Shown here: positions 3,101 to 23,640 of the stretch, piece by piece
How the letters are laid out: each line of letters starts with the position of its first letter
How positions within the stretch are numbered: position 1 is the stretch's first letter
NCBI RefSeq assembly: GCF_010672385.1
Contig: NZ_JAAHGT010000021.1
Coordinates: 223 to 64,222 of the forward strand
Direction: 5' to 3'
DNA length: 64,000 nucleotides
Source of the DNA: Okeania sp. SIO2F4
Lineage (GTDB): Bacteria > Cyanobacteriota > Cyanobacteriia > Cyanobacteriales > Microcoleaceae
Translations under genes and position numbers: made by a program
Notes under the pieces: model-generated
Database searches by the model: none
The model's input: only the letters and a program-made list of their open reading frames with translations
What the model was told of the DNA's origin: nothing

Positions 3101-3773
3101 TCAAGTAGAAAAACATGTAAAAAGATGGGTTGATACAGAAAATTCTTGGGTTCATTACATAGTAGAAGTTGATGAAAAAGAAGTTTATCTCGCTCAGGGA
3201 GATATCACTAACAACGTGATTAATGCTGATTTTATTTGTTATGCATATAAATTGGATACTGATGGAAGGGAGGTATGGGATGGTACTCAGATCCATGGAA
3301 GAAGGATTGAGTCAAGATTGAATATTAGTAGTTCAGGAAATAATGGTTGTTATGCTCAAAATTCTCTAGGTCAAGCAAGATCATTGTCAAATGAAGAATG
3401 TATAAACGAACTAGATACACCTAATAATGAAAACGAACTAGATACACCTAATAATGAAAACGAACTAGATACACCTAATAATGAAAACGAACTAGATACA
3501 CCTAATAATGAAAACGAACTAGATACACCTAATAATGAAAACGAACTAGATACACCTAACAATGAAAACGAACTAGATACACCTAATAATGAAAACGAAC
3601 TAGATACACCTAATAATGAAAACGAACTAGATACACCTAATAATGAAAACGAACTAGATATACCTAAGAATGTTAATCCACCTGATAATGAAATTGAAAA
3701 TATGCTCGATCCCACCGGCGAATGTAATGGGTGTAGTATGGATAAAGGTTTATTTGATCAGGTTGTTGGTTGA
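168..3773 (+). CDS. Polymorphic toxin: DUF4157 (HExxH, eCIS-associated) module plus RGH-type beta-beta-alpha-Me nuclease-like domain, joined by long low-complexity linkers
   Basis: 1201-codon ORF (TTG at 168, first ATG at 195). 'LPDETRNFMESRFGADFGNVRVHTG...GKELLAHELTHTIQQ' is the DUF4157 signature, with HELTH at nt 1848-1862. 'YIRGHLLNHHLGGNGYNENLYPITATANARHLNQVEKHV' (nt ~3003-3130) resembles the RGH...N...N core of non-specific endonucleases. The remainder is Q/E-rich sequence and tandem repeats. Confidence 0.75.
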   Translation: MQLNRDVSTMTHDFVKPKKIGGLDTNTHAGQRSPFAGRPFLATPRSQPQPQDIQTMRERAARYQAANPHLYGTSAQLQTVQRQASETEEESLQMKANESVQRKPEQPDLQTLIRQRAARAYTPLQRMMKVQMAEYQGLDRDKEDIQMRQESSVQREAMPEEQEKKKPEDIQAKTEPQPEDLEKEEDIPPVQATAESEPEDLEKKPEDIQPKLNSTVQAQDDLDKEKPEDLQAKADSQPEDLEEEDSTPVQTKAEPTETLEEETKLEEKQELNVQSQPSQQEEEVELQQKVNQAIQQQKLDEQNKDAQLQTRIDRSIQRQKLNKDRDQGHLQQQINHAVQHQELEKQQEETQLQRRINRAIQKQKAREDEDILKAPPAKTQSVRPKSFQTKLQNKLQTKLTVGKPGDKYEQEADKVAAKVMAMPETEQKISQKTELAPKQEESEVQMRSLADSVTSVGHGQLTGEPQSVVQNKEGQSSNKPGLESRLASQQGQGSPLPDETRNFMESRFGADFGNVRVHTGSQAVQMNKELGAQAFTHGNDVYFNSGKFNPGSSSGKELLAHELTHTIQQTGGKTSKSNVQKSSKANKVQTKPSMTPLTEEEIQDFYQFFSAFLSLLNEETPESEETPENEETTQNEETTQNEETPQNEETTQNEETTQNEETTQNEETTQNEETTQNEETPESEETPESEETPESEETPESEETPESEETPESEETDDGGSGGGGGGGGGGGVGVGVGVGVGVGVGVGVGVGVGVGVGVGVGGGGGGGGGAVGVGGGGADGHGDHENSQNEMEEQEEENDRSEEEKEEDLESAKNKLQEILDKSKKTTEVEKHFPAVKEEFQLKDIRWENLLTPDSALVIEINPLDRLDLTPNRIIVDLNILFGLPPQPVEYTPGWINTPEGDQEVGKKMEGRIGPYHIIGSGPQDLGLLTAYLPTDQNMDGDKRYIRGHLLNHHLGGNGYNENLYPITATANARHLNQVEKHVKRWVDTENSWVHYIVEVDEKEVYLAQGDITNNVINADFICYAYKLDTDGREVWDGTQIHGRRIESRLNISSSGNNGCYAQNSLGQARSLSNEECINELDTPNNENELDTPNNENELDTPNNENELDTPNNENELDTPNNENELDTPNNENELDTPNNENELDTPNNENELDTPNNENELDIPKNVNPPDNEIENMLDPTGECNGCSMDKGLFDQVVG
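2019..2313 (+). repeat. In-frame 18-bp coding tandem repeat (EETPES / EETTQN units, about 16 copies)
   Basis: gaagaaacaccagaaagc and gaagaaacaacacaaaac units follow each other head to tail inside the toxin ORF. Confidence 0.9.
2319..2492 (+). repeat. (GGT)n / (GGTGTT)n microsatellite encoding a poly-Gly and (Gly-Val)n tract
   Basis: Uninterrupted ggt and ggtgtt runs read directly. They translate as GGGGGGGGGGGVGVGV...GGGGGGG in the toxin frame. Confidence 0.9.
3405..3672 (+). repeat. 27-bp in-frame tandem repeat, about 10 copies (NELDTPNNE)
   Basis: aacgaactagatacacctaataatgaa repeats almost perfectly. The last unit is diverged (NELDIPKNV). Confidence 0.9.
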
Positions 3774-3890: not shown

Positions 3891-4490
3891 ATGGTAGCTA
3901 GTCTTAAAAATAACTCTGCTATTGATGTTTATCTATATAATTTTAATCCTCCAGCAACAAAAGAGGAATTAAATGAAGCGCAAAGCAAATTTAACCTTAC
4001 CTCGGCAATGATTGATTTTTATAGTGAAGCAAATGGTATCACTATTGAATGGGAAAAGCTAGGGAAAAAGGAAGTTCCGGAAGGAGGATTAATCGCTGGA
4101 TTGATTGATTTATTGCCAATTCAGGAAGTATTTAGGGATTGGAAAGATAATATTTATTTTGATGAAAATGATCCTTGTAAAGCATTACATCCCATAGACT
4201 ATTTTATTGGCAATGCTTGTGCAGGACTTTATTTAGATGGCTCAGATAATCCCGAAATCTATTATTACTATCGGGGTCGAAGAATTAGACCATTAGGTGT
4301 AGATTTCGAGGGCTATCTTCAACTGTTACTTAAATCTCGTGGTTTTTGGTATTGGCAACTAGCTATTGCTGGCCCTGAAGACATTGACCCTTCTGCAACT
4401 ATGTCCAGAGAAGAAAGAAACTTTCGAGAAATTATTCCACAGCTTTTTCCAGACTTTAATCAATCAGACTTTCAACGGCTAGAACAATGA
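3891..4490 (+). CDS. SMI1/KNR4 (SUKH)-like putative immunity protein
   Basis: 199-aa ORF immediately downstream of the toxin. Its N-terminal 'EELNEAQSKFNLTSAMIDFYSEANGITIEWE' fits the SUKH-1 pattern (ligand-question motif followed by 'nG'). The position is typical of an immunity gene. Confidence 0.5.
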   Translation: MVASLKNNSAIDVYLYNFNPPATKEELNEAQSKFNLTSAMIDFYSEANGITIEWEKLGKKEVPEGGLIAGLIDLLPIQEVFRDWKDNIYFDENDPCKALHPIDYFIGNACAGLYLDGSDNPEIYYYYRGRRIRPLGVDFEGYLQLLLKSRGFWYWQLAIAGPEDIDPSATMSREERNFREIIPQLFPDFNQSDFQRLEQ

Positions 4491-4575: not shown

Positions 4576-5706
4576 ATGGGTACGCTAATTCAGTCTGTTG
4601 CTTCCCTCGATCACTTCCAACTTTGGCCTAATTCTAACTCCCCCGTTTATCTTCAGACCGCAACTGTTACCCTAATTCAACAGGATGAGGAAATCATCGA
4701 GTGTCGCCTGACTTTTGGGGTTACTCCTGAACTCTACCATAGTATTGACACTGAAGCACTGTTCAACCTCAAGCCTGAAGTTCGGACTATGTTAACTAAT
4801 GGCCACTTCCAACCTCAACTCGATATCCATATTGAAGCCACTCTCAAACCTGATTTACTTCCTCTGCTTCTACAACAGGCGATCAACGCCGAAGAAGCGG
4901 CTTTTTATATTTCTAACCTCAGTCAAAAGCAAGCATCCTCACCAGACAGCTATACACTCCCTGAGACTGACCATCCTTACACTTTGTTAGAAACTGAAAA
5001 TTGGTTGGCCTTGTCTGTGGTACAACATCAAAATTCAGGAGAAATAGGCTACCGCACGTTTTGGTCTTATGTCAATCCTCAGACTTTAAATCGTAATTCT
5101 ATTTCCAGTGAAGAATTATCTGAAAATATCACCCGCTTTTTTACTGATGTCCTTGGTGGAAGTTTGGATAGTGCGATGCAAGAATTTGCCGATGAAACCG
5201 TCGGAAAAATTTCTAACTTTTTTCAAGAACTTACCTTAAAATCTTCTCCAAATCCTTCTATGTTTCAGACAGTTCTCAACTTTTTTACCGAAGATGACTG
5301 GCCATTTACTAAAATTCAAGGTGATTTTGCTTTACGTTTGGCCTTTCAAGGAAAAAATGGTACTTGGGACTGTTACGCCAAAGTTAGGGAACCACAACAA
5401 CAGTTCGTTTTCTATTCTGTTTGTTCGGTTAATACACCAGAAAATAAACGACAGGCGATTGGAGAATTCATCACCCGTGCCAACTATGACATGATTATAG
5501 GAAACTTTGAATTTGATTTCACAGATGGAGAAATTCGCTACAAAACTGGAATTGACGTACAAGGGGATAGACTGAGTTTTGCATTAATCAAACAGATGGT
5601 TTACGCCAATGTGATGATGATGGACGAATATTTACCAGGAATTCAAGCTGTTCTCTCTGAAAACCTCTCGCCCCTCGAAGCAATTACCAAGATAGAAGCT
5701 AGCTAA
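4576..5706 (+). CDS. Hypothetical protein with a C-terminal YbjN-like (T3SS-chaperone-like) domain
   Basis: 376-aa ORF. The C-terminal ~140 aa ('DWPFTKIQGDFALRLAFQGKNGTWDCYAKV...FVFYSVC...ANYDMIIGNFEFDFTDGEIRYKTGIDV') resemble YbjN-family domains. The N-terminal half is unrecognised. Confidence 0.45.
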   Translation: MGTLIQSVASLDHFQLWPNSNSPVYLQTATVTLIQQDEEIIECRLTFGVTPELYHSIDTEALFNLKPEVRTMLTNGHFQPQLDIHIEATLKPDLLPLLLQQAINAEEAAFYISNLSQKQASSPDSYTLPETDHPYTLLETENWLALSVVQHQNSGEIGYRTFWSYVNPQTLNRNSISSEELSENITRFFTDVLGGSLDSAMQEFADETVGKISNFFQELTLKSSPNPSMFQTVLNFFTEDDWPFTKIQGDFALRLAFQGKNGTWDCYAKVREPQQQFVFYSVCSVNTPENKRQAIGEFITRANYDMIIGNFEFDFTDGEIRYKTGIDVQGDRLSFALIKQMVYANVMMMDEYLPGIQAVLSENLSPLEAITKIEAS

Positions 5707-5801: not shown

Positions 5802-6416
5802 TTAAAAATAATTATTTATCCTATTTCTATCAGGATTAATTCCTGTGGGAAGTTTACGATTATTTCTAGTTTTTTTGCGGTTATCTAAACTATCAATTTC
5901 ACGACGAACTTGAGAAAGGGTATCAGAAACTTGATTTTTTGTACCATCATAACCAAGTGATTTTGAAGGTTTACTATGCTCTGTTTCTTTAAGTATTAAA
6001 CTATCAATTACAGCTCTAACAGGTGTTCCATCACTCAGAAACATTGTCAACTTATAATTGAGTCGTTCAATAAAACAACTCCGAAGATAAATTTGGTCTC
6101 CCCAAATAAACTTATAAATAGGTGGAGATTCTTTTCCCTGGGCAAATTCTACAGCTTTCCGAAACGGATCGATAAAAGTTGTCACAACATTCAATCCAGA
6201 TTCATAAGTATCAAATAAAATATTATTAATTGTTACTTGGTAGGGTTTAGTATGAGAAAAGCTAACTTTAGGAACTCCAGTATTATTATCTCTTGAACCA
6301 GGATTATCTGCAATTTGGACGACTCTTTCAAATACTAATTCTTTGGGATTAAACATAAATATAATATCCGGCGCATTATCCTGACATTTTAAAATAGCTT
6401 TAACAAGTTGTGCCAT
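5802..6416 (-). CDS. Contractile-injection-system tube-protein N-terminal-domain-like protein (tube-initiator-like, no LysM)
   Basis: I place the start at ATG 6416 (MAQLVKAILKCQD...), preceded by ggaga. The longer track ORF would read through a MITE. 'AILKC...IIFMFNPKELVFERVV...VSFSHTKPYQVTINNILFDTYE' matches the 'FxFNPeel' pattern of CIS tube / Afp7-N-like proteins. Confidence 0.5.
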   Translation of the reverse strand: MAQLVKAILKCQDNAPDIIFMFNPKELVFERVVQIADNPGSRDNNTGVPKVSFSHTKPYQVTINNILFDTYESGLNVVTTFIDPFRKAVEFAQGKESPPIYKFIWGDQIYLRSCFIERLNYKLTMFLSDGTPVRAVIDSLILKETEHSKPSKSLGYDGTKNQVSDTLSQVRREIDSLDNRKKTRNNRKLPTGINPDRNRINNYF

Positions 6417-6452
6417 AATATTCTCCTTAAAAAATTTAATTATAATATATAC

Positions 6453-6543
6453 AGGACTTACGCATGAGGTAGGAAAAACTAGGATTTGAGATTGCTTCCC
6501 TGTCGGTCGCAATGACGAAAATACGTTGTACTGCGTAAGTCCT
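6453..6543. mobile_element. MITE-like element, copy B (91 bp, 12-bp TIRs aggacttacgca / tgcgtaagtcct)
   Basis: Perfect terminal inverted repeats. The interior is almost identical to copies A and C. It lies exactly between the stop of the 1491-aa gene (6551) and the start of the tube-like gene (6416). Confidence 0.65.
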
Positions 6544-6550
6544 AATATAT

Positions 6551-9500
6551 TTACCAAGGTATATTACCTCTATAGTAAGGTCCTAAACGTTCTCTTTCTA
6601 TCTCTATTTTTAATTGTAATAATTGATAAATTTTTCGAGTAAGAGTTTGTAATTTATAATTAACTAAAGAAACTGTTGCTCCAGTTTGCGATCGAAGTTG
6701 TCCAGGACGATTTAGACTTGAAGACAACCCTGGTGTTTTGATAGGAGCGGTTTGACTAATAGTATCGAACCACGGCAAAGAGCCACCTGTTTTGAAGTCA
6801 TGACGTTCTCGTTCTAATTCAAGTTGTTGTCTTAATAAATTATAAACTTTTCGCGCCAACATTTCCAACTGTTCCTCATCAATTACAGTAATTTCTCTAT
6901 CTTCTCCAATCACTTTTTCCACTTTTGCTGAAGAACTTGAAATAGATGTTGGAAGTTCGGGAAGAGATTGTTCTTTTCCTATTGTAATTAATTCAGAAGT
7001 TTCCAGAGGCAACTGAGAATTAGATGATGGATTAAAGCGATCGTAATCCAGAATTTCTGTTATATTTGACCAGGATTCTTGTATGTTATCTATTACTGGA
7101 ACACTTTCATCTATTAGTTTAAATTGATTCGACCAAACTTCTTTAATTTGAGAATTTGCTTGGTTTTTAGAAGGTTGAAAAGAACCTATGTCAGTTGATG
7201 TTTCAGAATTTGATAAACTCTCAAAAAATTCACTCATTAGTTGGGATTGAATAAAATCTGATTGTTGAGCTAAAGGAGAATGAGATTGAATACGATTTAG
7301 GTTAGTTAAATTTTCAGGATTTAAGCGAGGTTGAATTTGAGAGACTTGATTTTCTGTTGTTTCTTGAGGAATAGTATCAGTAACTTCTGATTGTAATAAA
7401 GGTAAATATTCTGTAGTAGTTTGGGCTTTTTCTGGTAATTTAACTGTTGATTTTTGTTGAAATAAATCAATAGTTTTTTCTTGTGTTAACTGTTGGATTC
7501 CAATAGTTTCATCTAAAGCTTTGGGGCTTATTTCTGGTGATTTTACTATGGATTTTTCTTGAAGTGAATCCATAGGTAATTCTGGGATTAACTGTTGAGT
7601 TTCAATAATTTTATCTAAAAGTTTTGGAGTTGTTTCTGGCGATTGAGCTATGGATTTTTCTTGAAGTGAATCCATATTTTCTTCTGGGATTAACTCTTGG
7701 GTTTCAATAATTTCATCTAAAGCTATATTCGTTTCTTCTAAATTTTTTTCATAAGCAGGAACAGTTGAAATTTTAGGAACTAAATTAATAGGTTTTTCTT
7801 GTATTAATTGTTGGGTTTCAATAGTTTCATCTGAAGCTTTTTTTTCTATTTCTGGTGATTTTACTGTAGATTTTTCTTGAACTAAATCAATAGGTATCTC
7901 TGGGATTAACTCTTGGGCTTCAATAGTTTCATCTAAAGCTTTGGGGGTAATTTCTGGGATTTTAACTATGGATTTTTCTTGAACTAAATCAATAGGTAGC
8001 TCTGGGATTAACTGTTTATTTTCAGTAGTTTCATCTAAAACTTTTGGAGCTGTTTCTGGCGATTTAGCTATGAATTTTTCTTGAAGTAAATCCATATTTT
8101 CTTCTGGAATTAATTCTTGGGTTTCAACAATTTTATCTGAAGTCTTGGGGGTTGTTTCTGGCAATTGAGCTATAGATTTTTCTTGAAGTGAATCAATAGG
8201 TGATTCTGGGATTAACTCTTGAGGTTCAATAGTTTTATCTAAAACTTTTGGAGCTGTTCCTGGCGATTGAGCTATGAATTTTTCTTGAATTAAATCTATA
8301 CTTTCTTCTGGGATTAACTCTTGGGTTTTAACAGTTTCATCTGAAACTTTGGGTGTGATTTCTGGGAATTTTACTGTGGATGTTCCTTGAAATAAATCAG
8401 TAGGTTGTTCTGGGATTAACTCTTGGGTTTCAACAGTTTCATCTGAAGCTTTGGGTGTGATTTCTGGTGATTTATCTATGAATTTTTCTTGAATTAAATC
8501 CATATTTTCTTCTGGAATTAACTCTTGGGTTTCAATAATTTCATCTGAAACTTTGGGTGTTGTTTCTAGGGATTGAACTAGAGATTTTTCTTGAAGTAAA
8601 TCAATAGGTAATTCTGGGAATAATTCTTGAATGTAAAGAGTTTCATCTGAAGCTTTTGGCGTAGTTTCTGGTGATTTAAATGTCGAATTTTCTTCAACTA
8701 AGTCACTAGATTTATCTGGAATTAACTCTTGATTTTCAAGAGTTTCGCCTGAAACTTTTGATGTTATTTCTGGTGATTGAACTGTGGATTTTTCTTGAAC
8801 TAAGTCACTAGATTGCTCTGGGATTAACTGTTGAGGTTTAACAGTTTCGTCTGAAGCTATATTTGTTTCTTCTACAATTTTTTCAGAAGCAGGAATGGTT
8901 GAAGTTTTCGGAACTAAATTAATAGGTTGTTTTTCTATTAACTGTTGGGGTTCAATAGTCTCATCTGAAGCTGTTTTTTCTGTTTCTGGTGATTGAACTG
9001 TTGATTTTTCTTGAACTAAGTCAGTAGATTTTGGGGTTAACTCTTGATTTTTAACAGTTTCATCTAAAACTTTGGGTCTTCTTTCTGGTGATTGAACTGT
9101 CAAATTTTCTTGAACTAAGTCAATAGATCGTTCTTGTATTAACTGTTGAGTCTCAATAGTTTCATCTGAAGCTGTTTTTTCTATTTCTGGTGATTGAACT
9201 GTTGATTTTTCTTGAACTAAATCAATAGCTTTTTCTGGGATTAACTCTTGATTTTCAATATTTTCATCGGAAGCGGTTTTTTGTGTTCCTGAGAATTTTA
9301 CTGTGAAATTTTCTGGAACTAAGTCAGTATATTTCTCTGGAATTAACTCTTGAGGTTCAATATTTTCATCATTACCTATATTCGTTTCTTCTAAATTTTT
9401 TTGAGAACCTGGAATAGTTGAAGTTCCGGGAATTAAATTAATAGGTATCTCTGGGATTAACTCTTGATTTTCAATATTTTCATCTGAAGCGGTTTTTGGT

Positions 9501-11026
9501 GTTTCTGGGAATTTTACTGTGAAATTTTCTGGAACTAAGTCAGTATATTTCTCTGGAATTAAATCTTGAGGTTCAATATTTTCATCATTACCTATATTCG
9601 TTTCTTCTAAATTTTTTTGTGTACCTGGAATAGTTGAAGTTCCGGGAATTAAATTAATAGGTATCTCTGGAATTAACTCTTGGGATTCAACAGTCTCATC
9701 GGAAGCGGTTTTTGGTGTTCCTGGGAATTTTACTGTGAAATTTTCTGGAACTAAGTCAGTATATTTCTCTGGAATTAAATCTTGAGGTTCAATATTTTCA
9801 TCATTACCTATATTCGTTTCTTCTAAATTTTTTTGAGAACCTGGAATAGTTGAAGTTCCGGGAATTAAATTAATAGGTATCTCTGGGATTAACTCTTGAT
9901 TTTCAATATTTTCATCTGAAGCGGTTTTTGGTGTTCCTGGGAATTTTACTGTGAAATTTTCTGGAACTAAGTCAGTATATTTCTCTGGAATTAAATCTTG
10001 AGGTTCAATATTTTCATCATTACCTATATTCGTTTCTTCTAAATTTTTTTGAGAACCTGGAATAGTTGAAGTTCCGGGAATTAAATTAATAGGTATCTCT
10101 GGGATTAACTCTTGGGATTCAACCGTCTCACCTGAAGCGGTTTTTGGTGTTCCTGGGAATTTTACTGTGAAATTTTCTGGAACTAAGTCAGTATATTTCT
10201 CTGGAATTAACTCTGGAGGTTCAAGATTTTCATCATTACCTATATTCGTTTCTTCTAAATTTTTTTGTGTACCTGGAATAGTTGAAGTTCCGGGAATTAA
10301 ATTAATAGGTATCTCTGGGATTAACTCTTGGGATTCAACCGTCTCATCGGAAGCGGTTTGTTCTGTTCCTGGGAATTTTACTGTGGAATTTTCTGGAACT
10401 AAGTCAGTATATTTCTCTGGAATTAAATCTTGAACCTCAAGATTTTCATCATTACCTATATTCGTTTCTTCTAAATTTTTTTCTGTACCTGGAAGATCGG
10501 AAACAGGTTTATAAATATCGCCTTCCCATTTCGCTTGAACAATAGGTAAATTATCTGATTTATTTTTTTTTAATTTATCGTCTGAGAGTTGATGACTCTG
10601 AGGAAAAAGCATTTTATCAGCAGCAGTTGTTAAAATGCGCGACTGAGTTTGAATAATTTGTTTACCGAAGCGAGGATGAAGTTCCGAAAGCGGATTATTT
10701 TGGATGTTTTTTTCTACTAAAGGATGTGTTTGAAATTCTTCTTTTTTTATTTCAGCTATACTCTGGTTAATCTGATTTTCTGAAGAAGATTCTGAGTCAA
10801 AATTGTCTTCAATAAATTGACTGGTTATAGAAGTTGGTTTTTCAGGATAATTTGAACGAGAAAAATCCTGTGCAAAAGTGAAAAAATTATCAGATTCTTC
10901 TAAAGTTTGGGGTAACATTAATTGAGAAGCTTGAATCAGAGGCGATCGAACTTTCAACATCCGCTTTCGTCCCAGGTTTTCCGGGGAACACAAAGATTTT
11001 TTTAAACCTAGGGAAGATGTAGACAT
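6551..11026 (-). CDS. 1491-aa acidic tandem-repeat protein (tape-measure-like by position) with two C-terminal 'VYxLL...ERER' motifs
   Basis: Uninterrupted ORF. It has six near-identical 72-aa units (PG[ST]QKNLEETNIGNDENIEPQDLIPEKYTDLVPENFTVKF...), then many diverged ~34-aa 'ELIPE..DLVQEKSTVQSPE..K.SDET.E.Q' units. The C-terminus carries 'LARKVYNLLRQQLELERERH' and 'LTRKIYQLLQLKIEIERERL'. Confidence 0.7.
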   Translation of the reverse strand: MSTSSLGLKKSLCSPENLGRKRMLKVRSPLIQASQLMLPQTLEESDNFFTFAQDFSRSNYPEKPTSITSQFIEDNFDSESSSENQINQSIAEIKKEEFQTHPLVEKNIQNNPLSELHPRFGKQIIQTQSRILTTAADKMLFPQSHQLSDDKLKKNKSDNLPIVQAKWEGDIYKPVSDLPGTEKNLEETNIGNDENLEVQDLIPEKYTDLVPENSTVKFPGTEQTASDETVESQELIPEIPINLIPGTSTIPGTQKNLEETNIGNDENLEPPELIPEKYTDLVPENFTVKFPGTPKTASGETVESQELIPEIPINLIPGTSTIPGSQKNLEETNIGNDENIEPQDLIPEKYTDLVPENFTVKFPGTPKTASDENIENQELIPEIPINLIPGTSTIPGSQKNLEETNIGNDENIEPQDLIPEKYTDLVPENFTVKFPGTPKTASDETVESQELIPEIPINLIPGTSTIPGTQKNLEETNIGNDENIEPQDLIPEKYTDLVPENFTVKFPETPKTASDENIENQELIPEIPINLIPGTSTIPGSQKNLEETNIGNDENIEPQELIPEKYTDLVPENFTVKFSGTQKTASDENIENQELIPEKAIDLVQEKSTVQSPEIEKTASDETIETQQLIQERSIDLVQENLTVQSPERRPKVLDETVKNQELTPKSTDLVQEKSTVQSPETEKTASDETIEPQQLIEKQPINLVPKTSTIPASEKIVEETNIASDETVKPQQLIPEQSSDLVQEKSTVQSPEITSKVSGETLENQELIPDKSSDLVEENSTFKSPETTPKASDETLYIQELFPELPIDLLQEKSLVQSLETTPKVSDEIIETQELIPEENMDLIQEKFIDKSPEITPKASDETVETQELIPEQPTDLFQGTSTVKFPEITPKVSDETVKTQELIPEESIDLIQEKFIAQSPGTAPKVLDKTIEPQELIPESPIDSLQEKSIAQLPETTPKTSDKIVETQELIPEENMDLLQEKFIAKSPETAPKVLDETTENKQLIPELPIDLVQEKSIVKIPEITPKALDETIEAQELIPEIPIDLVQEKSTVKSPEIEKKASDETIETQQLIQEKPINLVPKISTVPAYEKNLEETNIALDEIIETQELIPEENMDSLQEKSIAQSPETTPKLLDKIIETQQLIPELPMDSLQEKSIVKSPEISPKALDETIGIQQLTQEKTIDLFQQKSTVKLPEKAQTTTEYLPLLQSEVTDTIPQETTENQVSQIQPRLNPENLTNLNRIQSHSPLAQQSDFIQSQLMSEFFESLSNSETSTDIGSFQPSKNQANSQIKEVWSNQFKLIDESVPVIDNIQESWSNITEILDYDRFNPSSNSQLPLETSELITIGKEQSLPELPTSISSSSAKVEKVIGEDREITVIDEEQLEMLARKVYNLLRQQLELERERHDFKTGGSLPWFDTISQTAPIKTPGLSSSLNRPGQLRSQTGATVSLVNYKLQTLTRKIYQLLQLKIEIERERLGPYYRGNIPW
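7450..10500 (-). repeat. Hierarchical in-frame coding repeats (216-bp units at ~9200-10500; ~100-bp diverged units at ~7450-9200)
   Basis: The 216-bp units are almost identical at DNA level (for example ...ggaattaa.tcttgaggttcaatattttcatcattacctatattcgtttcttctaaattttttt...). Confidence 0.85.
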
Positions 11027-11116
11027 AATTAATCAGCCTCTTAATTAATTAAATTTTATAAAAAGCCTTTATAAAAAGCGGTTAAAATTATCTCGTTCTC
11101 TTGATGCTTTTCGCTT

Positions 11117-11836
11117 TTAATTATCAATTTCACGCGCAGCTTTTCCTTTAGCATAATCCATTCCTTGTTGTTTTAATTGATCGTATTCAGTTTCCAGATC
11201 GTTCATCGTATTTCTAACTTCTTGTCCCAATGAATTCCTAGCATTAGAAAGGGTTCTACTAGCTTGATTTAGGTGTTGTCTGCCAACATCTGCTAAATCA
11301 CTAGCAAAATAGCCTAAACTACTGCGATTAAGTGGGTTTGCTGGCTCGAATTCTCGTTTGTATGATTCTAAAGTATCTTTTTTATAAATGGTTAAACCTT
11401 CATAAGCTAAAGTTAATTCCTCTATAGCAACATTATTAGAATCTGCTTGAAAAGGCGATACTTTCCAACTAACTGGAACTGAACCAATTAGTGTCCAAGA
11501 CTGCATCGTTTCTCCAGCTTGATTAAATAGAAGCAGAGTAACATTCAAACGAATTTTTTGAGAGTCTCGCAAAATTTTTTCAATCCAATTTAAGAAAGTT
11601 AAATCATCAGTTATTCCTCGTTTTAATGTGACATCTGTGAATTCCGCTGGTCCTAAAATAATTCTTTGTTGATCGTTAACACCGCCTTCATGAAAAGTTT
11701 CTCGCTTAATGTTAACGCCTAAGCCAGAACATTCACTAAAACAGGCTGAAATTTGACTATCAATTTCTAAATAAAACTTATTCGCTGTAACATAATTTAG
11801 TTCATAAGCTGAAGGTTCTTGACGATTTTTTTTCAT
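11117..11836 (-). CDS. Phage T4 gp19-like tail tube protein with a ~90-aa C-terminal extension
   Basis: 'YVTANKFYLEIDSQISACFSECSGLGVNIKRETFHEGGVNDQQRIILGPAEFTDVTLKRGITDDLTFLNWI...WTLIGSVPVSWKVSPFQADSNNVAIEELTLAYEGL' follows the conserved phage-tail-region/gp19 tube pattern. The extra C-terminal helical tail is not typical of this family. Confidence 0.7.
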   Translation of the reverse strand: MKKNRQEPSAYELNYVTANKFYLEIDSQISACFSECSGLGVNIKRETFHEGGVNDQQRIILGPAEFTDVTLKRGITDDLTFLNWIEKILRDSQKIRLNVTLLLFNQAGETMQSWTLIGSVPVSWKVSPFQADSNNVAIEELTLAYEGLTIYKKDTLESYKREFEPANPLNRSSLGYFASDLADVGRQHLNQASRTLSNARNSLGQEVRNTMNDLETEYDQLKQQGMDYAKGKAAREIDN

Positions 11837-11988
11837 TATAAAATCCTCCGATGGTTACAAACACGTTCCTGTTGATTACGAATATCTTCTTCCATTAGCT
11901 TATAAACTCTATCGCAGAGTTTTCGTAGTAAAATTGGATCTTTAATTATCTTTTCAATTAATTTACCTTCTAAATCTTTTTCTGACAT
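11836..11988 (-). CDS. 50-aa ORF (absent from the ORF track) with a 'VYxLM...ER' motif, coupled to the tube gene
   Basis: My translation: MSEKDLEGKLIEKIIKDPILLRKLCDRVYKLMEEDIRNQQERVCNHRRIL*. Its TAA overlaps the tube gene ATG (TAATG). The motif resembles the two at the C-terminus of the 1491-aa protein. Confidence 0.45.
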   Translation of the reverse strand: MSEKDLEGKLIEKIIKDPILLRKLCDRVYKLMEEDIRNQQERVCNHRRIL

Positions 11989-12011: not shown

Positions 12012-14507
12012 TTATTTTAACAATTGAATGGGAATTAATCCAGCCGAATGTAATAGATGTTGTCCTTCATTAGTTTTCATTATATCAGAAAATACTCGAC
12101 CTGGTGAATCTTTACTTCCTTCTTTTAAATAAATCACAGCAATCGAATATCCTAACGGATAATTTCCTTGTTTAAATATCTTAGGGTTTGGTTTGTAACT
12201 TCCTTTGTCCATACATAAATCTGTTGCTGGTGTGATTGGTTTGCCATTGTTATGTATAATTGGTTGAACTGCTGTAAGTTTCCCTTCTCCAACAATTGCT
12301 AAAGGATAGACTGAACACTGATTAAATACTTTACTAAATAAATCAATCCCAATCACAGCTTGACCGTCTTGTTCAAATTCTGCTAAAGCCCTTGCAGTAC
12401 CTTTACTATATCCTGTTTTTATGCAAGTCTTTTTATCTTCATTAATAAGATTGACAAAGTTGTTTCTTTCCTGGGTATTTTTTAAAACTAAGTTTTCAAA
12501 TAATGAAGTCACCAGAAAAACTTCTTCTGTAGTTTTATAACAAATAGGGCCTCTTTTGACATTTTTTTGATTATTAACAGAATCAGCTTCTTGATTATTA
12601 GCAGAATCAGAAATCCCTAACTCTTTTAATGTTAAGGATTGATTAGAGTAGAGTTTTTTGAGGGATTTGAGGGAAATTTTACCAGAAAGTAATTTAGGCA
12701 AATTTCCTTTTCGCTGAACATCACTGAAAGCTACATAAGCGAATAAACCATCGTATGCAATAATTTGTATTTCTAACTGTTTGTTATTTTTTAAAAGCTG
12801 AACTTCGTCATCAAAGAGAGAAGTTACTATAAATTTATATTTTTCTAAATTAGATATAATTGTATTTTCTAAACGTTCTTTTTTTGCTTCTTTTGTCCCT
12901 TCGTTGCTTTCGGTATGGCTAAAATCAAATGAATCTGGAGAATGTGAATTAAATGAATTTTGAGAGAGAATATTCAAATGCTTATAAAACTGTTGACTTC
13001 TACCATAAGCAACGGGAGTTTTTAACGCAATATTCCATCTTTTATCCGCTGCATATCTAATTCTTTTATTGCTGAAATTTATGGGAATATTCACTTGTTT
13101 AATTGACTTGCTTTTTGGTTCTTCTGGAATAGTCTTTGGCTCTATTTTTTGTGTTTTTAAACGAGAGAAAAAATACCATACTCCCCCAAAAAAACTACCA
13201 AAAGCCACTAAGGCTATCAACATAAGAATAATCGGAATAATCCAAGAACGTTGAGAAGTTTCAACATCTTTATTATCATCAAAAACACTCTGGGAGGAAT
13301 CTACTTTAGAATCTAAAGGTAATTTTAATAATTCTCGATGAGCTTGAGCTGCACTCTGAAAAGAACCCGAATATAATTGTACGGTGAAATTTTTGATTTC
13401 AGGATGACAATGTTGATGCCATTCCAAATCTTGAGCTGGATATTCCTGGGTTCCACCAGATAAAAAATAGCTAACTTTACCTAAATCTTTAAGGTCTTTT
13501 TCAAAGACTTTTTTGGATAGATATTGATTTTCTAATTTTGAGTCTAAATTATCTATTAATTGTTCCCATAGTGCTAGACGACTTACATAAATTTTAAATT
13601 CTTCATCTTCTTCATTAGAAGCAAATTGTTGACCATAAGTAACAACTAATAGACTGTCTAAATTGAGGTTTCCATGACCTATTCCTTTAGAGTTATTTTC
13701 AAAAAAACGAATTTCATAACAGTTGTGTAAGAACTGCAAGCTTTGCAATATTTGTTGCAGAATTTTACTAAATTGAATTGGCGTTAAAGGTTCATGCCGT
13801 TGATTGAGATATTCTCCTAAAGTCAGACTATTGGGAATTTTTTCAAGAATCAAATACCAACGGATATCTTGTTCGTTATCCTCATAAAAATCTTGAACAA
13901 TATCAATGGGAAGTAGTAAACGAAATTCTTTAACTTTTACATTTTGATAGGTAACTTCAGGTAAACGATCGGATGAACTTCGAGTTAAAAATTCTTGAAT
14001 CAATACTTGTTGCTTTTGCTGTGCAGTAGGAGTGGCTTCATATTGACGAGTTTGAGCTGAATGACTCAGACACTGACCAATTTTATACCTGCGACCAAAG
14101 TTATCTCGAATTTCATAATCTGGAAGGAGAACTTTTTGAGTTTTCTGGTCTTTGCGTCGTCGTCGAGAACGTTCCCTAAAAATGGGTTGGTCTAAACTTG
14201 TAGGTTGAATGGAAGTTTTTACTCCTCCTGTTTCTGCGGGAATTATGGGTTTTAGTCTAGCTTGACTTGGAGATTCGAATTGGCTTTTATCTTGAGAAAA
14301 ATTAGGTAAAGGTGGAAAAATTTGCCTATCTTGCTTTTGGGAATTCTTGCGTTCGCTTTCTCCAAATTCCGCTCGTTCATACATTTGCTGTGCTCGACGC
14401 ACAAAAACCCGACGAATACTATCAACAGGATAGTTAATAAAGGTAAAAATTTCTCGTCCTCTGAGTTTTACTATGTTTACTAAATCTGATAATCTCATAG
14501 CGATCAC
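12012..14507 (-). CDS. Membrane-spanning pseudokinase with a C-terminal PstS/PBP-like periplasmic binding domain
   Basis: The kinase-like fold has degraded catalytic motifs ('VLIQEF' in place of VAIK; 'GHGNLNLDSLLV' in place of HRDLKPxN; no DFG). One TM helix (WIIPIILMLIALVAFGSFFGGVWYFF). The C-terminal domain ends '...MKTNEGQHLLHSAGLIPI', as in PBP_like_2 domains. Confidence 0.55.
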   Translation of the reverse strand: MIAMRLSDLVNIVKLRGREIFTFINYPVDSIRRVFVRRAQQMYERAEFGESERKNSQKQDRQIFPPLPNFSQDKSQFESPSQARLKPIIPAETGGVKTSIQPTSLDQPIFRERSRRRRKDQKTQKVLLPDYEIRDNFGRRYKIGQCLSHSAQTRQYEATPTAQQKQQVLIQEFLTRSSSDRLPEVTYQNVKVKEFRLLLPIDIVQDFYEDNEQDIRWYLILEKIPNSLTLGEYLNQRHEPLTPIQFSKILQQILQSLQFLHNCYEIRFFENNSKGIGHGNLNLDSLLVVTYGQQFASNEEDEEFKIYVSRLALWEQLIDNLDSKLENQYLSKKVFEKDLKDLGKVSYFLSGGTQEYPAQDLEWHQHCHPEIKNFTVQLYSGSFQSAAQAHRELLKLPLDSKVDSSQSVFDDNKDVETSQRSWIIPIILMLIALVAFGSFFGGVWYFFSRLKTQKIEPKTIPEEPKSKSIKQVNIPINFSNKRIRYAADKRWNIALKTPVAYGRSQQFYKHLNILSQNSFNSHSPDSFDFSHTESNEGTKEAKKERLENTIISNLEKYKFIVTSLFDDEVQLLKNNKQLEIQIIAYDGLFAYVAFSDVQRKGNLPKLLSGKISLKSLKKLYSNQSLTLKELGISDSANNQEADSVNNQKNVKRGPICYKTTEEVFLVTSLFENLVLKNTQERNNFVNLINEDKKTCIKTGYSKGTARALAEFEQDGQAVIGIDLFSKVFNQCSVYPLAIVGEGKLTAVQPIIHNNGKPITPATDLCMDKGSYKPNPKIFKQGNYPLGYSIAVIYLKEGSKDSPGRVFSDIMKTNEGQHLLHSAGLIPIQLLK

Positions 14508-17311: not shown

Positions 17312-17340
17312 CTGCGCAAACAGCTAGAGGTACTGATAAC

Positions 17341-23449: not shown

Positions 23450-23640
23450 TAAATAAGGTTGATTTAAAACTTTTTCGCACTAAGAGCAATTATGATAACT
23501 GCTTCATAAAACTGATATAAAACGTCACATAGGGTGATATTTTAATGTTTACTTCCTGCTTCAATCGGAACTGTCGGCAGCACTCCGTCCACAGGCATTG
23601 ACGGTCAAGCCGACCGCATCCCTCAAATTAAGACTGGCAT
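23450..23640 (-). ncRNA. Expected location of the TnpB omega (RE-derived guide) RNA; boundaries not determined
   Basis: Positional inference only. In characterised TnpB elements the guide RNA overlaps the 3' end of tnpB and the right end. I could not define a structure by eye. Confidence 0.2.

What the first reader, a model, noticed from the sequence alone, without database searches (positions are those of the whole stretch)
5802..11988. Sheathless tail-tube module: 50-aa ORF, gp19-like tube, 1491-aa repeat protein in the tape-measure position, and a second tube-like protein
The order of small ORF, tube, very long repetitive protein and CIS-tube-N-like protein mirrors the tube / chaperone / tape-measure / tube-initiator segment of myophage and eCIS tail operons. 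No sheath, baseplate wedge, spike/VgrG, PAAR or AAA+ gene is visible anywhere in the window. The upstream genes on the same strand are instead a pseudokinase and a TPR protein. The neighbouring convergent locus encodes a DUF4157 toxin, a domain that typically marks eCIS cargo. This could be a remnant of an eCIS. It could also be a minimal tube-based apparatus of unknown function.
Basis: partly seen in the sequence, partly recalled or inferred. Interest (0 to 1): 0.75.

Follow-up and report, generated by a model that had tools for sequence, protein, structure and literature searches.

The report
Needle-base genes of a contractile injector
The four genes are real, but they are not a sheathless device: they are the tube-starter and length-ruler genes of an ordinary contractile injection system, and in near-identical sister genomes its sheath, tube, spike and baseplate genes lie just beyond the left edge of the window.

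Summary
On the minus strand lie a conserved 50-aa ORF, a gp19-family protein (PF06841, 2.5e-35), a 1491-aa repeat protein and a CIS_tube protein (PF19266, 2.3e-17). No sheath, spike or baseplate gene occurs in the 64 kb window.

The 'sheathless' reading is a window-edge artefact. The window is colinear (93-98% nt) with Dapis sp. contigs. There, P2_I, baseplate J and gp25 lie 3.5-8 kb left of window position 1. Two Cis1-type tube genes, the sheath and the Pvc16 cap lie 14-19 kb left, and AAA+, PAAR and VgrG lie beyond them.

In about 30 other cyanobacteria the same block (pseudokinase-PBP protein, small ORF, tube paralog, long protein, CIS_tube, VgrG) sits inside one contiguous sheath-to-ATPase cluster. 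The window's 'tube' is the Cis5-type adaptor, not the main tube. The CIS_tube protein is a LysM-less Cis7. The long protein occupies the Cis14 tape-measure slot.

All four genes are under purifying selection (dN/dS 0.08-0.30). The module is therefore the needle-initiation and ruler block of a rearranged but complete contractile injection system. It is a new member of a known kind.

Lineage-specific features are left over: an operon-embedded transmembrane pseudokinase-PstS protein, and a tape measure that varies from 439 to 1946 aa through acidic tandem repeats.

The parts
11836..11988 (-). s50: conserved 50-aa protein, with its stop overlapping the start of the next gene. It carries a helix motif (LLRKLxDRVYxLMxEDxRNQxER) that resembles the C-terminal motif of the tape-measure-like protein. 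Role unknown.
   Evidence: Present directly upstream of the Cis5-type tube gene in 27 loci. dN/dS 0.17-0.30. hhalign against the TMP C-terminal motif gives probability 85%, E=6.6e-6. No Pfam, NCBIfam, PHROG or PDB match.
11117..11836 (-). Cis5-type inner-tube adaptor (gp19/Afp5 family), 239 aa. It has a lineage-specific C-terminal linker and a long helix (aa 181-238).
   Evidence: PF06841 2.5e-35. TIGR02241 2.8e-39. NCBIfam CIS5_fam 74 bits against CIS1_fam 18 bits. Best PDB sequence hits are 9rce_I, Alg5 7aeb_Y, Pvc5 and 9qgl_5A. The sheath-adjacent paralogs of the sister genome hit the Cis1 class instead. It is 64% identical to the fourth tube paralog of the Phormidium cluster and 27% to a sheath-adjacent one. 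AF2 model pLDDT 72.5. Foldseek top hits are Alg5 and Anabaena Cis5.
6551..11026 (-). Cis14-position tape-measure-like protein, 1491 aa. It consists of a conserved N-terminal part (aa 1-182), about 29 acidic 34-38-aa repeats (aa 183-1208, net charge -133, 10% Pro), and a conserved C-terminal part (aa 1209-1491).
   Evidence: It always lies between the Cis5-type tube and CIS_tube in 40+ loci. The 439-aa orthologs of Limnoraphis, Lyngbya and Capilliphycus equal the N and C parts without repeats. Composition. No Pfam, NCBIfam or PDB hit.
9214..10494 (-). Young repeat array inside the tape-measure gene: 216-nt (72-aa) unit, 5.9 copies, 94% identity.
7423..9370 (-). Older repeat array inside the tape-measure gene: 102-nt (34-aa) unit, 18.9 copies, 73% identity.
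6770..6883 (-). First copy of the C-terminal motif LAxxVYxLLRQxLEIERERxG (aa 1382-1419).
   Evidence: An HMM built from alignment A3 scores E=2.4e-18. In all fetched loci the motif is found only in proteins at the tape-measure position.
6554..6661 (-). Second copy of the motif, ending in ...GNIPW at the C-terminus (aa 1456-1491).
   Evidence: E=4.9e-16. 22 of 32 family members have two copies.
5802..6416 (-). Cis7-type tube initiator (CIS_tube domain), 204 aa, without a LysM domain, with a basic C-terminal tail.
   Evidence: PF19266 2.3e-17. PDB hit to the AlgoCIS LysM protein 7aeb_M at 9.3e-5. AAGGAG ribosome-binding site upstream of ATG 6416. dN/dS 0.08-0.20.
12012..14507 (-). PBP831: bitopic membrane protein. 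It has an N-terminal kinase-like domain with HRD changed to HGN (a pseudokinase), one TM helix (aa 423-441), and a C-terminal PstS-like periplasmic-binding domain. It is a conserved gene of this CIS lineage.
   Evidence: It lies directly upstream of s50 in 32 loci, including contiguous full clusters. Family profile against PDB: phosphate-binding proteins 2.8e-8 and WNK kinases 7.5e-6. Pkinase hits 11 of 17 members and PBP_like_2 hits 9 of 17. TM helix. dN/dS 0.34-0.48.
14641..16590 (-). TPR protein with an N-terminal signal or anchor sequence. It neighbours PBP831 in the Dapis/Limnoraphis/Lyngbya lineage and in Nostoc piscinale.
17567..20896 (-). 1109-aa Ig-like repeat protein with one central TM helix. 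It co-occurs with CIS baseplate genes in other cyanobacteria.
   Evidence: (L030, L004).
20926..23442 (-). 838-aa WD40 protein with one central TM helix. In Planktothrix, L030, L040 and L041 it lies downstream of the baseplate genes.
168..3773 (+). DUF4157/eCIS_core protein (putative cargo), 1201 aa, with internal 18-, 6- and 27-nt tandem repeats.
   Evidence: PF13699 2.4e-33. Repeats. eCIS_core genes lie in or next to this cluster type in many loci.
3891..4490 (+). SUKH/SMI1_KNR4 protein, likely the immunity partner of the cargo.
   Evidence: PF09346 3.5e-6. The role is inferred from what is known of the SUKH family.
4576..5706 (+). YbjN-like protein, repeatedly linked to eCIS_core genes in this cluster type (candidate cargo chaperone).
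   Evidence: PF10722 3.7e-9. Synteny in L007, L014, L020, L022, L029 and L045.
23561..24667 (-). IS605-family TnpB/OrfB at the right-hand border of the CIS block. It marks a possible rearrangement boundary.
   Evidence: There is no DNA similarity to the TnpB copy of strain M172.

Best explanation
The four genes are the needle-initiation and length-determination block of a complete contractile injection system (CIS, Afp/PVC/AlgoCIS/tCIS type) of a Dapis-like marine filamentous cyanobacterium.

**Assignments**
- The 239-aa gp19-family protein is the Cis5-type adaptor ring.
- The 204-aa CIS_tube protein is a LysM-less Cis7 initiator ring.
- The 1491-aa protein fills the Cis14 tape-measure slot.
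- The 50-aa protein is a conserved companion of unknown role that shares the tape measure's C-terminal helix motif.

**Inferred mechanism, by homology to solved CIS structures.** A VgrG trimer is capped by a Cis7 hexamer and then a Cis5 hexamer. The tape measure is anchored in this hub by its conserved C-terminal motifs. Cis1 tube rings, encoded next to the sheath gene outside the window, polymerise around the tape measure, and sheath polymerises around the tube. The AAA+ ATPase loads the DUF4157 cargo.

**Why it looks sheathless.** The locus has been broken into blocks. This block now lies inverted and convergent with the cargo genes, and the 64-kb window starts about 3.5 kb to the right of the nearest baseplate gene.

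**Membrane link (inferred).** The transmembrane pseudokinase-PstS protein, the TPR protein and the two bitopic WD40 and Ig-like proteins on the same strand are lineage-specific CIS-linked membrane proteins. They probably tether or regulate the particle.

**What is shown and what is inferred.** Shown: homologies, synteny, colinearity with the sister genomes, and purifying selection. Inferred: assembly order, the ruler function of the repeat protein, and membrane tethering.
For: 1. **Family assignments.**

2. **Full contiguous clusters elsewhere.** In Phormidium sp. R1S1 the order is tube x3, sheath, a 113-aa gene, PBP-kinase, s50, tube, TMP-like, CIS_tube, VgrG, PAAR, gp25, J, P2_I, Pvc16_N, AAA. 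The same core order occurs in Nostoc minutum, Mastigocoleus and others.

3. **Colinearity.** Window 122-7303 matches Dapis sp. BLCC M172 contig positions 14723-21074 of L047 at 93-98% identity.
   - That contig carries P2_I, J, gp25, two chaperone-like genes and two gp19 tubes to the left.
   - A 93-98% identical contig, L050, adds the sheath (PF04984 and PF17482) and Pvc16_N.
   - A further contig of the same assembly carries VgrG, PAAR and the C-terminal part of the AAA+ gene; L050 holds an N-terminal part of it.

4. **Complementarity.** The left-flank block holds no Cis5, Cis14 or Cis7, and the window block holds no Cis1, sheath or baseplate genes. The two blocks complement each other.

5. 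**Paralog identity.** The sheath-adjacent tubes hit the Cis1 class in the PDB. The window's tube hits the Cis5 class.

6. **Selection.** dN/dS is 0.08-0.30 for the four genes.

7. **Limnoraphis.** It shows the same genes split across blocks: gp25-J-P2_I about 8 kb upstream of TPR-PBP-s50-tube-TMP-CIS_tube-VgrG, and sheath-tube-tube with Pvc16, AAA and PAAR elsewhere.

8. **Field evidence (circumstantial).** Contracted sheaths were purified from a Lake Zurich sample, and MS identified a putative sheath protein of Planktothrix sp. PCC 11201 (PMC8894136, Suppl. Fig. 11). That strain carries a related cluster (L042).
Against: - The rest of the system was seen only in sister genomes, not in the window's own genome. 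Window bases 1-121 did not align to L047.
- One assembly used (GCA_013332635.1) is a metagenome. Linking its VgrG-PAAR-AAA contig to the sheath contig rests on complementary fragments of one AAA gene, with a gap of about 75 aa.
- In all Dapis-like sequences VgrG is not next to Cis7. In strain M172 the DUF4157 gene is split into two ORFs. Some decay of the system in this lineage therefore cannot be excluded.
- The tape-measure assignment rests on position and family continuity only. No similarity to Afp14, Alg14 or phage TMP families was detected. The proline-rich acidic repeats are unlike the alpha-helical centre of known CIS rulers.
- Cis5 versus Cis1 discrimination is clear from sequence scores but weak from Foldseek (2.0e-7 against 4.3e-7).
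Confidence: 0.85

Rival explanations
1. It is a decaying, displaced fragment of a CIS cluster that no longer contributes to any particle. The locus was shuffled by mobile elements and this block is on its way to loss.
For: - The cluster is broken into blocks, with TnpB genes at the borders.
- VgrG is no longer adjacent to Cis7 in any Dapis-like sequence.
- The DUF4157 gene is split in strain M172.
- Repeat arrays are expanding inside two genes.
Against: - All eight genes of the block are intact.
- dN/dS is 0.08-0.30 for the four genes, both against a strain with dS of about 0.19 and against genera with dS of 0.6-1.2.
- The block is the only source of Cis5, Cis7 and Cis14 for the locus.
- The split arrangement is stable across Limnoraphis, Lyngbya, Capilliphycus and Dapis.
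Confidence: 0.07
2. It is an auxiliary needle cassette, analogous to orphan Hcp-VgrG-effector islands of type VI secretion. It would supply an alternative hub, ruler and cargo set to a main CIS encoded elsewhere.
For: - The block lies next to a cargo-immunity-chaperone trio: DUF4157, SUKH and YbjN.
- It is physically separated from the sheath and baseplate blocks.
- Tape-measure length differs strongly between strains.
Against: - No second Cis5/Cis14/Cis7 set is seen in the sheath or baseplate blocks of Dapis or Limnoraphis.
- In contiguous clusters of other genera this block is the single in-cluster copy.
Confidence: 0.05
3. It is the first reader's reading: a self-sufficient, sheathless, non-contractile tube apparatus built from these genes plus the pseudokinase and TPR proteins.
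For: - No sheath or baseplate gene lies in the 64-kb window.
- In Limnoraphis-type genomes the block with VgrG ends without sheath genes within 10 kb downstream.
Against: - A sheath gene lies about 15-17 kb left of the window in colinear genomes.
- The window's tube is the adaptor paralog, not the polymerising Cis1.
- The same block is embedded in sheath-containing clusters in about a dozen genera.
Confidence: 0.03

Closest known systems
Thylakoid-anchored CIS of Anabaena sp. PCC 7120 (all3313-all3327; Weiss et al. 2022, PMC8894136)
   Same: - The host is a filamentous cyanobacterium.
- Cis5 and Cis7 form the first two tube layers on the VgrG-like Cis8.
- Cis14 is the tape measure.
- DUF4157 proteins are the putative cargo.
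- Membrane-associated accessory proteins are present.
- The window's tube matches Cis5 (All3323) and Cis1 (All3324) by sequence and fold.
   Different: - The Anabaena cluster is one contiguous operon.
- No Cis15 AAA+ is listed for it (Suppl. Table 1 of the paper). The present lineage has one.
- Anabaena Cis7 has a LysM domain that binds Cis9 and Cis12. The window's Cis7 has none.
- Anabaena's table lists no pseudokinase-PBP gene and no s50-type gene.
- The NCBIfam CIS5, CIS12 and CIS13 models are hit far below their equivalog cut-offs (74/260, 66/860 and 31/370 bits).
AlgoCIS of Algoriphagus machipongonensis (PDB 7adz/7aeb; Xu et al. 2022, PMC8894135; preprint 10.64898/2026.05.27.728243)
   Same: - The best solved matches include Alg5 (7aeb_Y) for the tube paralog, and Alg7 (7aeb_M) is the only one for the CIS_tube protein.
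- DUF4157 cargos are loaded into the tube lumen with help from the AAA+ ATPase.
- The Alg14 tape measure sets particle length at about 0.229 nm per residue.
   Different: - AlgoCIS is an extracellular system of a Bacteroidota species with a contiguous cluster.
- Alg14 is 526 aa with an alpha-helical centre. Here the centre is about 1000 aa of acidic, proline-rich tandem repeats.
- Alg7 carries a LysM domain.
Afp / PVC (Serratia entomophila, Photorhabdus): Afp5-Afp6-Afp7-Afp8 and Afp14
   Same: The same protein families are present: Pvc5, Afp5, Pvc1 and Afp1 are hit. A small protein lies next to the Cis5 and Cis7 genes, as Afp6/Pvc6 does.
   Different: - The gene order differs: the small ORF comes before Cis5, and the tape measure lies between Cis5 and Cis7.
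- s50 shows no detectable similarity to any solved chain, including the entries that hold Cis6.
- The hosts and the accessory genes differ.
Phage T4 tail: gp19 tube, gp54/gp48 tube initiators, gp29 tape measure
   Same: The window's tube protein belongs to the Pfam family named after T4 gp19. The assembly logic is the same: a hub, initiator rings, a ruler, then tube and sheath.
   Different: No phage head, neck or lysis genes are present. The closest relatives are bacterial CIS proteins, not phage proteins: the PHROG tube hit is only 1.6e-12.

Membership tests
Contractile injection system (Afp/PVC/AlgoCIS/tCIS-type) gene set | Contractile sheath gene (Cis2; PF04984/PF17482) belonging to the same locus | tested here: met
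   Absent from the window. Present about 15-17 kb left of window position 1 in colinear Dapis-like contigs (L050 sheath of 571 aa), and in contiguous clusters of other genera. Not verifiable in the window's own genome.
Contractile injection system (Afp/PVC/AlgoCIS/tCIS-type) gene set | Main inner-tube protein (Cis1) | tested here: met
   Two gp19-family genes lie next to the sheath in L047 and L050. Their best PDB hits are Alg1, All3324, Pvc1 and Afp1. They are not in the window.
Contractile injection system (Afp/PVC/AlgoCIS/tCIS-type) gene set | Tube adaptor/initiator Cis5 (gp19 family, gp54 analogue) | tested here: met
   Window 11117-11836. CIS5_fam 74 bits against CIS1_fam 18 bits. PDB top hits include Alg5, Pvc5 and 9qgl_5A. 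Foldseek top hits are Alg5 and Anabaena Cis5. The score is below NCBIfam's equivalog cut-off, so this is family-level membership only.
Contractile injection system (Afp/PVC/AlgoCIS/tCIS-type) gene set | Tube initiator Cis7 with CIS_tube domain | tested here: met
   PF19266 2.3e-17. Alg7 7aeb_M at 9.3e-5.
Contractile injection system (Afp/PVC/AlgoCIS/tCIS-type) gene set | LysM domain on Cis7, which links the tube to the baseplate in Anabaena, AlgoCIS and Afp | tested here: not met
   No LysM hit in the window protein. The precomputed Pfam lists of orthologs show CIS_tube only.
Contractile injection system (Afp/PVC/AlgoCIS/tCIS-type) gene set | Tape measure (Cis14): a long protein encoded beside the hub genes, with a helical ruler region and length proportional to the particle | tested here: inconclusive
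   Position is met in 40+ loci. A conserved C-terminal motif is specific to this slot. There is no sequence match to any TMP family or solved chain. The central region is acidic with 10% Pro, which argues against a helical ruler. Particle lengths are unknown.
Contractile injection system (Afp/PVC/AlgoCIS/tCIS-type) gene set | VgrG spike and PAAR tip | tested here: met
   None in the window. VgrG directly follows CIS_tube in most other loci that cover that side (VgrG_rel 7.8e-103). In the Dapis-like assembly VgrG and PAAR lie beside the AAA+ gene.
Contractile injection system (Afp/PVC/AlgoCIS/tCIS-type) gene set | Baseplate wedge genes (gp25/Cis9, Baseplate_J/Cis11, P2_I/Cis12) | tested here: met
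   In L047 and L050, 3.5-8.3 kb left of window position 1: gp25 of 137 aa, J of 779-780 aa (TIGR02243 3.3e-155) and P2_I of 357 aa.
Contractile injection system (Afp/PVC/AlgoCIS/tCIS-type) gene set | Cap (Pvc16_N/Cis16) and AAA+ ATPase (Cis15) | tested here: met
   Pvc16_N of 410 aa lies divergent from the sheath in L050. AAA+ fragments lie in L050 and L054. Both genes are intact in Limnoraphis L052.
Contractile injection system (Afp/PVC/AlgoCIS/tCIS-type) gene set | DUF4157/eCIS_core cargo gene in the locus | tested here: met
   Window 168-3773, PF13699 2.4e-33.
Anabaena-type thylakoid-anchored CIS (tCIS) | Cis13 with a transmembrane helix, the Cis12 extension and the Cis19 crown that anchor the particle in thylakoid stacks | tested here: not met
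   The Cis13-like DUF4159 protein of L047 scores 31 bits against a cut-off of 370 and has no predicted TM helix. P2_I/Cis12 is 357 aa, so it is too short to hold the residue 610-1100 extension. Cis19 was not searched for. Other bitopic proteins (PBP831, WD40, Ig-like) could play an analogous role, but that is inference.
Anabaena-type thylakoid-anchored CIS (tCIS) | Intracellular, membrane-anchored localisation | not testable with these tools
   This needs cryo-ET or fluorescence microscopy.
Pfam PF06841 Phage_T4_gp19 / TIGR02241 | Score above the curated cut-off | tested here: met
   121.7 bits against 28.2. 134.1 bits against 62.4.
Active protein kinase (for the 831-aa neighbour) | Catalytic HRD aspartate | tested here: not met
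Invariant H278-G279-N280 in 17 family members stands in place of HRD. The kinase-like fold is supported only at profile level (7.5e-6 to WNK kinases).

The most novel reading that the evidence does not exclude
This cyanobacterial CIS lineage may be a membrane-coupled, sensor-linked variant. An operon-embedded bitopic pseudokinase-PstS-like protein, together with the 50-aa motif protein, would couple an external or lumenal ligand signal to needle assembly or firing.

Separately, the tape measure may be tuned by expansion of acidic 34-38-aa repeats. Using the 0.216-0.229 nm per residue reported for CIS rulers, predicted needle lengths would be:
- about 95-100 nm for the 439-aa protein of Limnoraphis,
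- about 320-340 nm for the 1491-aa protein here,
- about 420-445 nm for the 1946-aa protein of Dapis M229.

Alternatively, the repeat region is not a ruler but an extruded polyanionic passenger.
Probability: 0.2. Interest if true: 0.55.

Novelty: new member of a known kind. Interest (0 to 1): 0.3.

Why it matters
**Main value: a correction.** An apparently sheathless tube module is the middle of a normal contractile injection system. It was cut by the window edge and scattered by rearrangements. This warns against calling 'minimal' or 'sheathless' tail-like systems from a single window.

**Points a CIS specialist could use**
1. A transmembrane pseudokinase-PstS-like protein and a 50-aa motif protein are conserved inside the structural operon in about 30 cyanobacterial species. 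Neither is listed among the components of the Anabaena, AlgoCIS, Afp or PVC systems in the papers read here.
2. The tape-measure slot varies from 365 aa to more than 2400 aa, and four-fold between sister genera, purely through tandem repeats. This is a natural experiment on length control.
3. A short C-terminal motif (LAxxVYxLLRQRLEIERERxG) marks the proteins in this slot. It could help annotate CIS rulers, which currently have no family model.
4. A Cis7 without LysM raises the question of how the tube is tied to the baseplate in this lineage.

Tried and rejected
- **Exact-sequence look-ups** of two window proteins found nothing. The window's own genome is not in that collection, so I had to work through homologs.
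- **s50 as Cis6/Afp6 (spike plug).** A profile of 17 s50 sequences found no solved chain, so this stays untested rather than supported.
- **s50 as tail-assembly chaperone.** A better candidate exists outside the window: the 106- and 126-aa paralogs after Cis1b, with a weak PHROG 'tail assembly chaperone' hit at 0.0066.
- **Tape-measure motif in cargo proteins, as a possible loading signal.** The HMM hits only proteins in the tape-measure slot, never eCIS_core proteins.
- **Tape-measure protein against PDB, Pfam, NCBIfam and PHROGs.** Nothing meaningful.
- **NCBIfam CIS1 and CIS5 models used alone.** They do not separate the paralogs cleanly, because the sheath-adjacent tubes also score slightly higher on CIS5. 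The PDB hit patterns were needed.
- **Foldseek.** It ranks Cis5 proteins first, but by a margin too small to be decisive.
- **Rearrangement through identical IS copies.** The window's TnpB shares no DNA similarity with the TnpB of strain M172.
- **Literature.** A search of the held library for a pseudokinase in cyanobacterial CIS clusters returned nothing.
- **Promoter and terminator scan.** Counts were no higher than in shuffled sequence and no minus-strand terminator was found inside the block. This is compatible with co-transcription but is not evidence for it.

Full report
**1. What is in the sequence**

The finding lies on the minus strand. The ORF list and translations give four genes:
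- a 50-aa ORF at 11988..11836, whose stop overlaps the next start;
- a 239-aa ORF at 11836..11117;
- a 1491-aa ORF at 11026..6551;
- an ORF ending at 5802.

The list starts the last ORF at a TTG (6557, 251 aa). Orthologs start at the ATG at 6416, which is preceded by AAGGAG. The protein is therefore 204 aa.

Pfam confirms the two family calls well above cut-off: Phage_T4_gp19 at 2.5e-35 and CIS_tube at 2.3e-17. The long protein has no Pfam, NCBIfam or PDB match.

It is built from three parts:
- a 182-aa N-terminal part;
- about 29 repeats of 34-38 aa, from a young 216-nt array (5.9 copies, 94% identity) and an older 102-nt array (18.9 copies, 73%), with net charge -133 and 10% proline;
- a 283-aa C-terminal part.

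Upstream on the same strand lie an 831-aa protein, a TPR protein, a 1109-aa Ig-like protein, a WD40 protein and a TnpB. Convergent on the plus strand lie an eCIS_core/DUF4157 protein (2.4e-33), a SUKH protein and a YbjN-like protein.

No sheath, VgrG, PAAR, gp25, baseplate J, Pvc16 or CIS-type AAA+ gene is in the 64 kb. This was checked by Pfam on all ORFs of at least 120 aa and by tblastn with family representatives.

**2. The module is conserved, and elsewhere it sits inside sheath-containing clusters**

The tube protein has more than 1000 homologs; every source name among the 120 best hits listed is cyanobacterial. Contexts of the closest ones (an uncultured Lyngbya, Limnoraphis robusta and others) show the same order with a VgrG gene added: TPR, an 807-834-aa protein, the 50-aa ORF, tube, a long protein, CIS_tube, VgrG.

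A scan of one genome per species with a CIS_tube alignment returned 35 loci, 34 of them titled as cyanobacterial or uncultured records. I clustered their ORFs and named the families by Pfam.

In Phormidium sp. R1S1 the order is contiguous: tube, tube, tube, sheath, a 113-aa gene, the roughly 800-aa protein, the 48-aa ORF, tube, long protein, CIS_tube, VgrG, PAAR, gp25, Baseplate_J, Tail_P2_I, Pvc16_N, AAA.

The same core order (sheath, tube, tube, small gene, 800-aa protein, small ORF, tube, long protein, CIS_tube, VgrG, and so on) occurs in Nostoc minutum, Mastigocoleus testarum and about ten further loci. The four genes are thus the central segment of a canonical contractile injection system (CIS) cluster. 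The '831-aa pseudokinase' and the 50-aa ORF are regular members of that cluster type.

**3. The missing genes lie just outside the window**

The best CIS_tube matches (98% identity) are two Dapis strains and a MAG. Window 122-7303 is colinear with Dapis sp. BLCC M172 contig JBNHEQ010000220 (locus L047, positions 14723-21074) at 93-98% nucleotide identity.

To the left of the position that corresponds to window base 1, that contig carries the following (window-equivalent coordinates follow from the offset):

| Gene | Approximate position relative to window base 1 |
|---|---|
| TnpB and a Cis13-like DUF4159 gene | within about 3.3 kb |
| Tail_P2_I (357 aa) | -4.6 to -3.5 kb |
| Baseplate J (779 aa) | -7.1 to -4.7 kb |
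| gp25 (137 aa) | about -8 kb |
| two chaperone-like 106- and 126-aa genes, a DUF6760 ORF, two gp19-family tube genes | out to about -14.8 kb |

A second Dapis-like contig (L050) is 93-98% identical to L047. It extends the map to a 571-aa sheath gene (PF04984 and PF17482, about -16.9 to -15.1 kb) and a divergent Pvc16_N cap gene.

A third contig of the same assembly (L054) carries VgrG (84% identical to the Lyngbya VgrG), PAAR, and residues 272-662 of the AAA+ ATPase. L050 holds residues 60-196 of that ATPase at its end. The two contigs are therefore almost certainly adjacent.

The left-hand blocks contain no Cis5, Cis14 or Cis7, and the window block contains no Cis1, sheath or baseplate gene. 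The blocks are complementary parts of one system spread over roughly 50 kb.

Limnoraphis shows the same genes in a different block order. gp25-J-P2_I lies about 8 kb upstream of the TPR-to-VgrG block, separated from it by an inverted Ig-like/WD40/DUF4159/pentapeptide block. Sheath-tube-tube with Pvc16, AAA and PAAR lies on another contig.

**4. Identity of the individual proteins**

*The tube paralog.* The lineage has three or four gp19-family paralogs.
- The window's protein is 64% identical to the paralog that follows the small ORF in Phormidium, and 27% identical to a sheath-adjacent one.
- NCBIfam scores it 74 bits on the CIS5 (inner tube adaptor) model against 18 bits on CIS1.
- Its best solved relatives are 9rce_I, AlgoCIS Alg5, Pvc5 and the PlPVC1 chain 5A.
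- The sheath-adjacent Dapis paralogs instead hit Alg1, All3324 (Anabaena Cis1), Pvc1 and Afp1.
- An AlphaFold model built on 53 sequences (pLDDT 72.5) shows the tube fold plus a long C-terminal helix specific to this lineage.
- Foldseek ranks Alg5 and Anabaena Cis5 first, but only narrowly ahead of Alg1.

I conclude, with moderate-to-good confidence, that it is the Cis5-type adaptor ring and not the polymerising tube.

*The CIS_tube protein.* It matches the AlgoCIS LysM protein Alg7 but has no LysM domain.

*The long protein.* It occupies the Cis14 slot. Its family ranges from 365 to 1946 aa, and unclustered proteins in the same slot reach 2418 aa. The 439-aa orthologs of Limnoraphis, Lyngbya and Capilliphycus equal the window protein's N and C parts without the repeats.

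Its C-terminus carries one or two copies of a motif, LAxxVYxLLRQRLEIERERxG. An HMM of this motif finds it only in proteins of this slot.

*The 50-aa protein.* It carries a similar helix motif (hhalign probability 85%). It matches nothing in any library, so its role is open.

*The 831-aa neighbour.* At profile level it is a kinase-like domain with HGN in place of HRD, one transmembrane helix, and a PstS-like binding domain. The WD40 and Ig-like proteins also have single central transmembrane helices.

**5. Is it alive?**

All genes of the block are intact. Pairwise dN/dS against Dapis M229, Lyngbya and Limnoraphis is:

| Gene | dN/dS |
|---|---|
| Cis5 | 0.11-0.19 |
| Cis7 | 0.08-0.20 |
| 50-aa ORF | 0.17-0.30 |
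| pseudokinase-PBP | 0.34-0.48 |

This argues against a decaying remnant.

There is also circumstantial field evidence. Weiss et al. purified contracted sheaths from a Lake Zurich sample, and MS identified a putative sheath protein of Planktothrix sp. PCC 11201 (PMC8894136, Suppl. Fig. 11). That strain carries a more distant version of this cluster (L042).

**6. Mechanism**

By homology to the solved Anabaena, AlgoCIS, Afp and PVC structures (PMC8894136), the assembly sequence is inferred as follows:
1. Cis7 and then Cis5 hexamers stack on the VgrG trimer and convert three-fold into six-fold symmetry.
2. The tape measure is held in this hub.
3. Cis1 rings and sheath polymerise.
4. The Pvc16-type cap terminates growth.

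In AlgoCIS the ruler sets length at 0.229 nm per residue, and the AAA+ ATPase mediates loading of DUF4157 cargo into the lumen (preprint 10.64898/2026.05.27.728243).

Applied here, the 1491-aa protein would predict a needle of about 320-340 nm, against about 100 nm in Limnoraphis. The repeat region is acidic and proline-rich rather than obviously helical, so its ruler function is an inference that needs measurement. Tandem repeats are a known source of tape-measure length variation in phages (PMC13585406, abstract).

**7. Comparison and novelty**

The system is a member of the Afp/PVC/AlgoCIS/tCIS superfamily by its full set of core genes. It is not the Anabaena tCIS type:
- it has an AAA+ ATPase;
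- it lacks LysM on Cis7;
- its Cis12 and Cis13 relatives score far below the NCBIfam equivalog cut-offs;
- it carries extra conserved genes.

I found no paper in the held library that describes the pseudokinase-PBP component.

The finding as stated, a sheathless tube apparatus, is not real. What remains is a new, rearranged member of a known kind with some lineage-specific features worth a specialist's attention.

**8. Caveats**

- The left flank was seen only in sister genomes, and window bases 1-121 did not align to them.
- One of the assemblies is a metagenome.
- VgrG is displaced from Cis7 in every Dapis-like sequence, and the DUF4157 gene is split in strain M172. Partial decay in some strains is therefore possible.

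Noticed in passing
window 12012-14507 (-), and 32 related loci: An 800-830-aa bitopic protein (pseudokinase with HGN instead of HRD, one TM helix, PstS-like binding domain) is a conserved in-operon gene of this cyanobacterial CIS lineage. It lies between the sheath/Cis1 genes and the Cis5/Cis14/Cis7 genes. It is not listed among the components of the characterised CIS in the papers read here.
   Followed up: partly
window 168-3773 (+): The DUF4157/eCIS_core gene contains three internal tandem arrays: 18 nt x16.7 at 2015-2314, 6 nt x27.7 encoding (GV)n at 2331-2499, and 27 nt x10 at 3404-3672. In Dapis M172 the orthologous gene is split into 407- and 426-aa ORFs. Repeat instability therefore affects both the cargo gene and the tape-measure gene.
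   Followed up: partly
window 11117-11380 (-), aa 150-239 of the Cis5-type protein: A disordered linker and a confidently predicted 58-residue helix form a C-terminal extension. It is found only in the Dapis-like orthologs (239-261 aa). Orthologs of other genera range from about 150 to 213 aa.
   Followed up: partly
window 17567-23442 (-): The WD40 (838 aa) and Ig-like (1109 aa) proteins each have one central TM helix. They travel with CIS baseplate genes in Planktothrix, L030, L040 and L041. They may be peripheral or anchoring components.
   Followed up: partly
window 23561-24667 (-); L047 12801-14099: IS605-family TnpB genes sit at borders of the rearranged CIS blocks in the window and in strain M172. 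The two copies share no DNA similarity.
   Followed up: yes
L047 753-1593 (left of the window in Dapis M172): Two paralogous 106- and 126-aa genes (weak PHROG 'tail assembly chaperone' hit) and a 48-aa DUF6760 ORF follow the Cis1 genes. They are the likelier chaperone candidates for the tape measure.
   Followed up: partly
L047 1625-4431 versus L050 6499-6930: Strain M172 has about 2.8 kb in the span between the DUF6760 ORF and the gp25 gene that does not align to the otherwise colinear contig L050. It includes a glycine-rich repeat protein of 261 aa.
   Followed up: no
window 27995-42176 (-): A run of replication and modification genes: a Prim-Pol/CHC2 zinc-finger protein (1329 aa), a ResIII/Helicase_C helicase (582 aa), a 1963-aa protein with a Dam methyltransferase domain, and a SWIM zinc-finger protein. 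An HTH/Cro-like gene lies at 43694-44119. It looks like an integrated mobile element.
   Followed up: no
window 47756-52386 (+): A CHAT protease, a small iSTAND/EAD9 protein, a 148-aa ORF, an AAA ATPase and a VWA (CoxE-like) protein lie in a row. This looks like a conflict or defence-type gene set.
   Followed up: no
window 52755-56288 (+): An 1177-aa fusion of two GntR-type HTH domains, a response-regulator receiver and an FGE-sulfatase domain. This is an unusual architecture.
   Followed up: no
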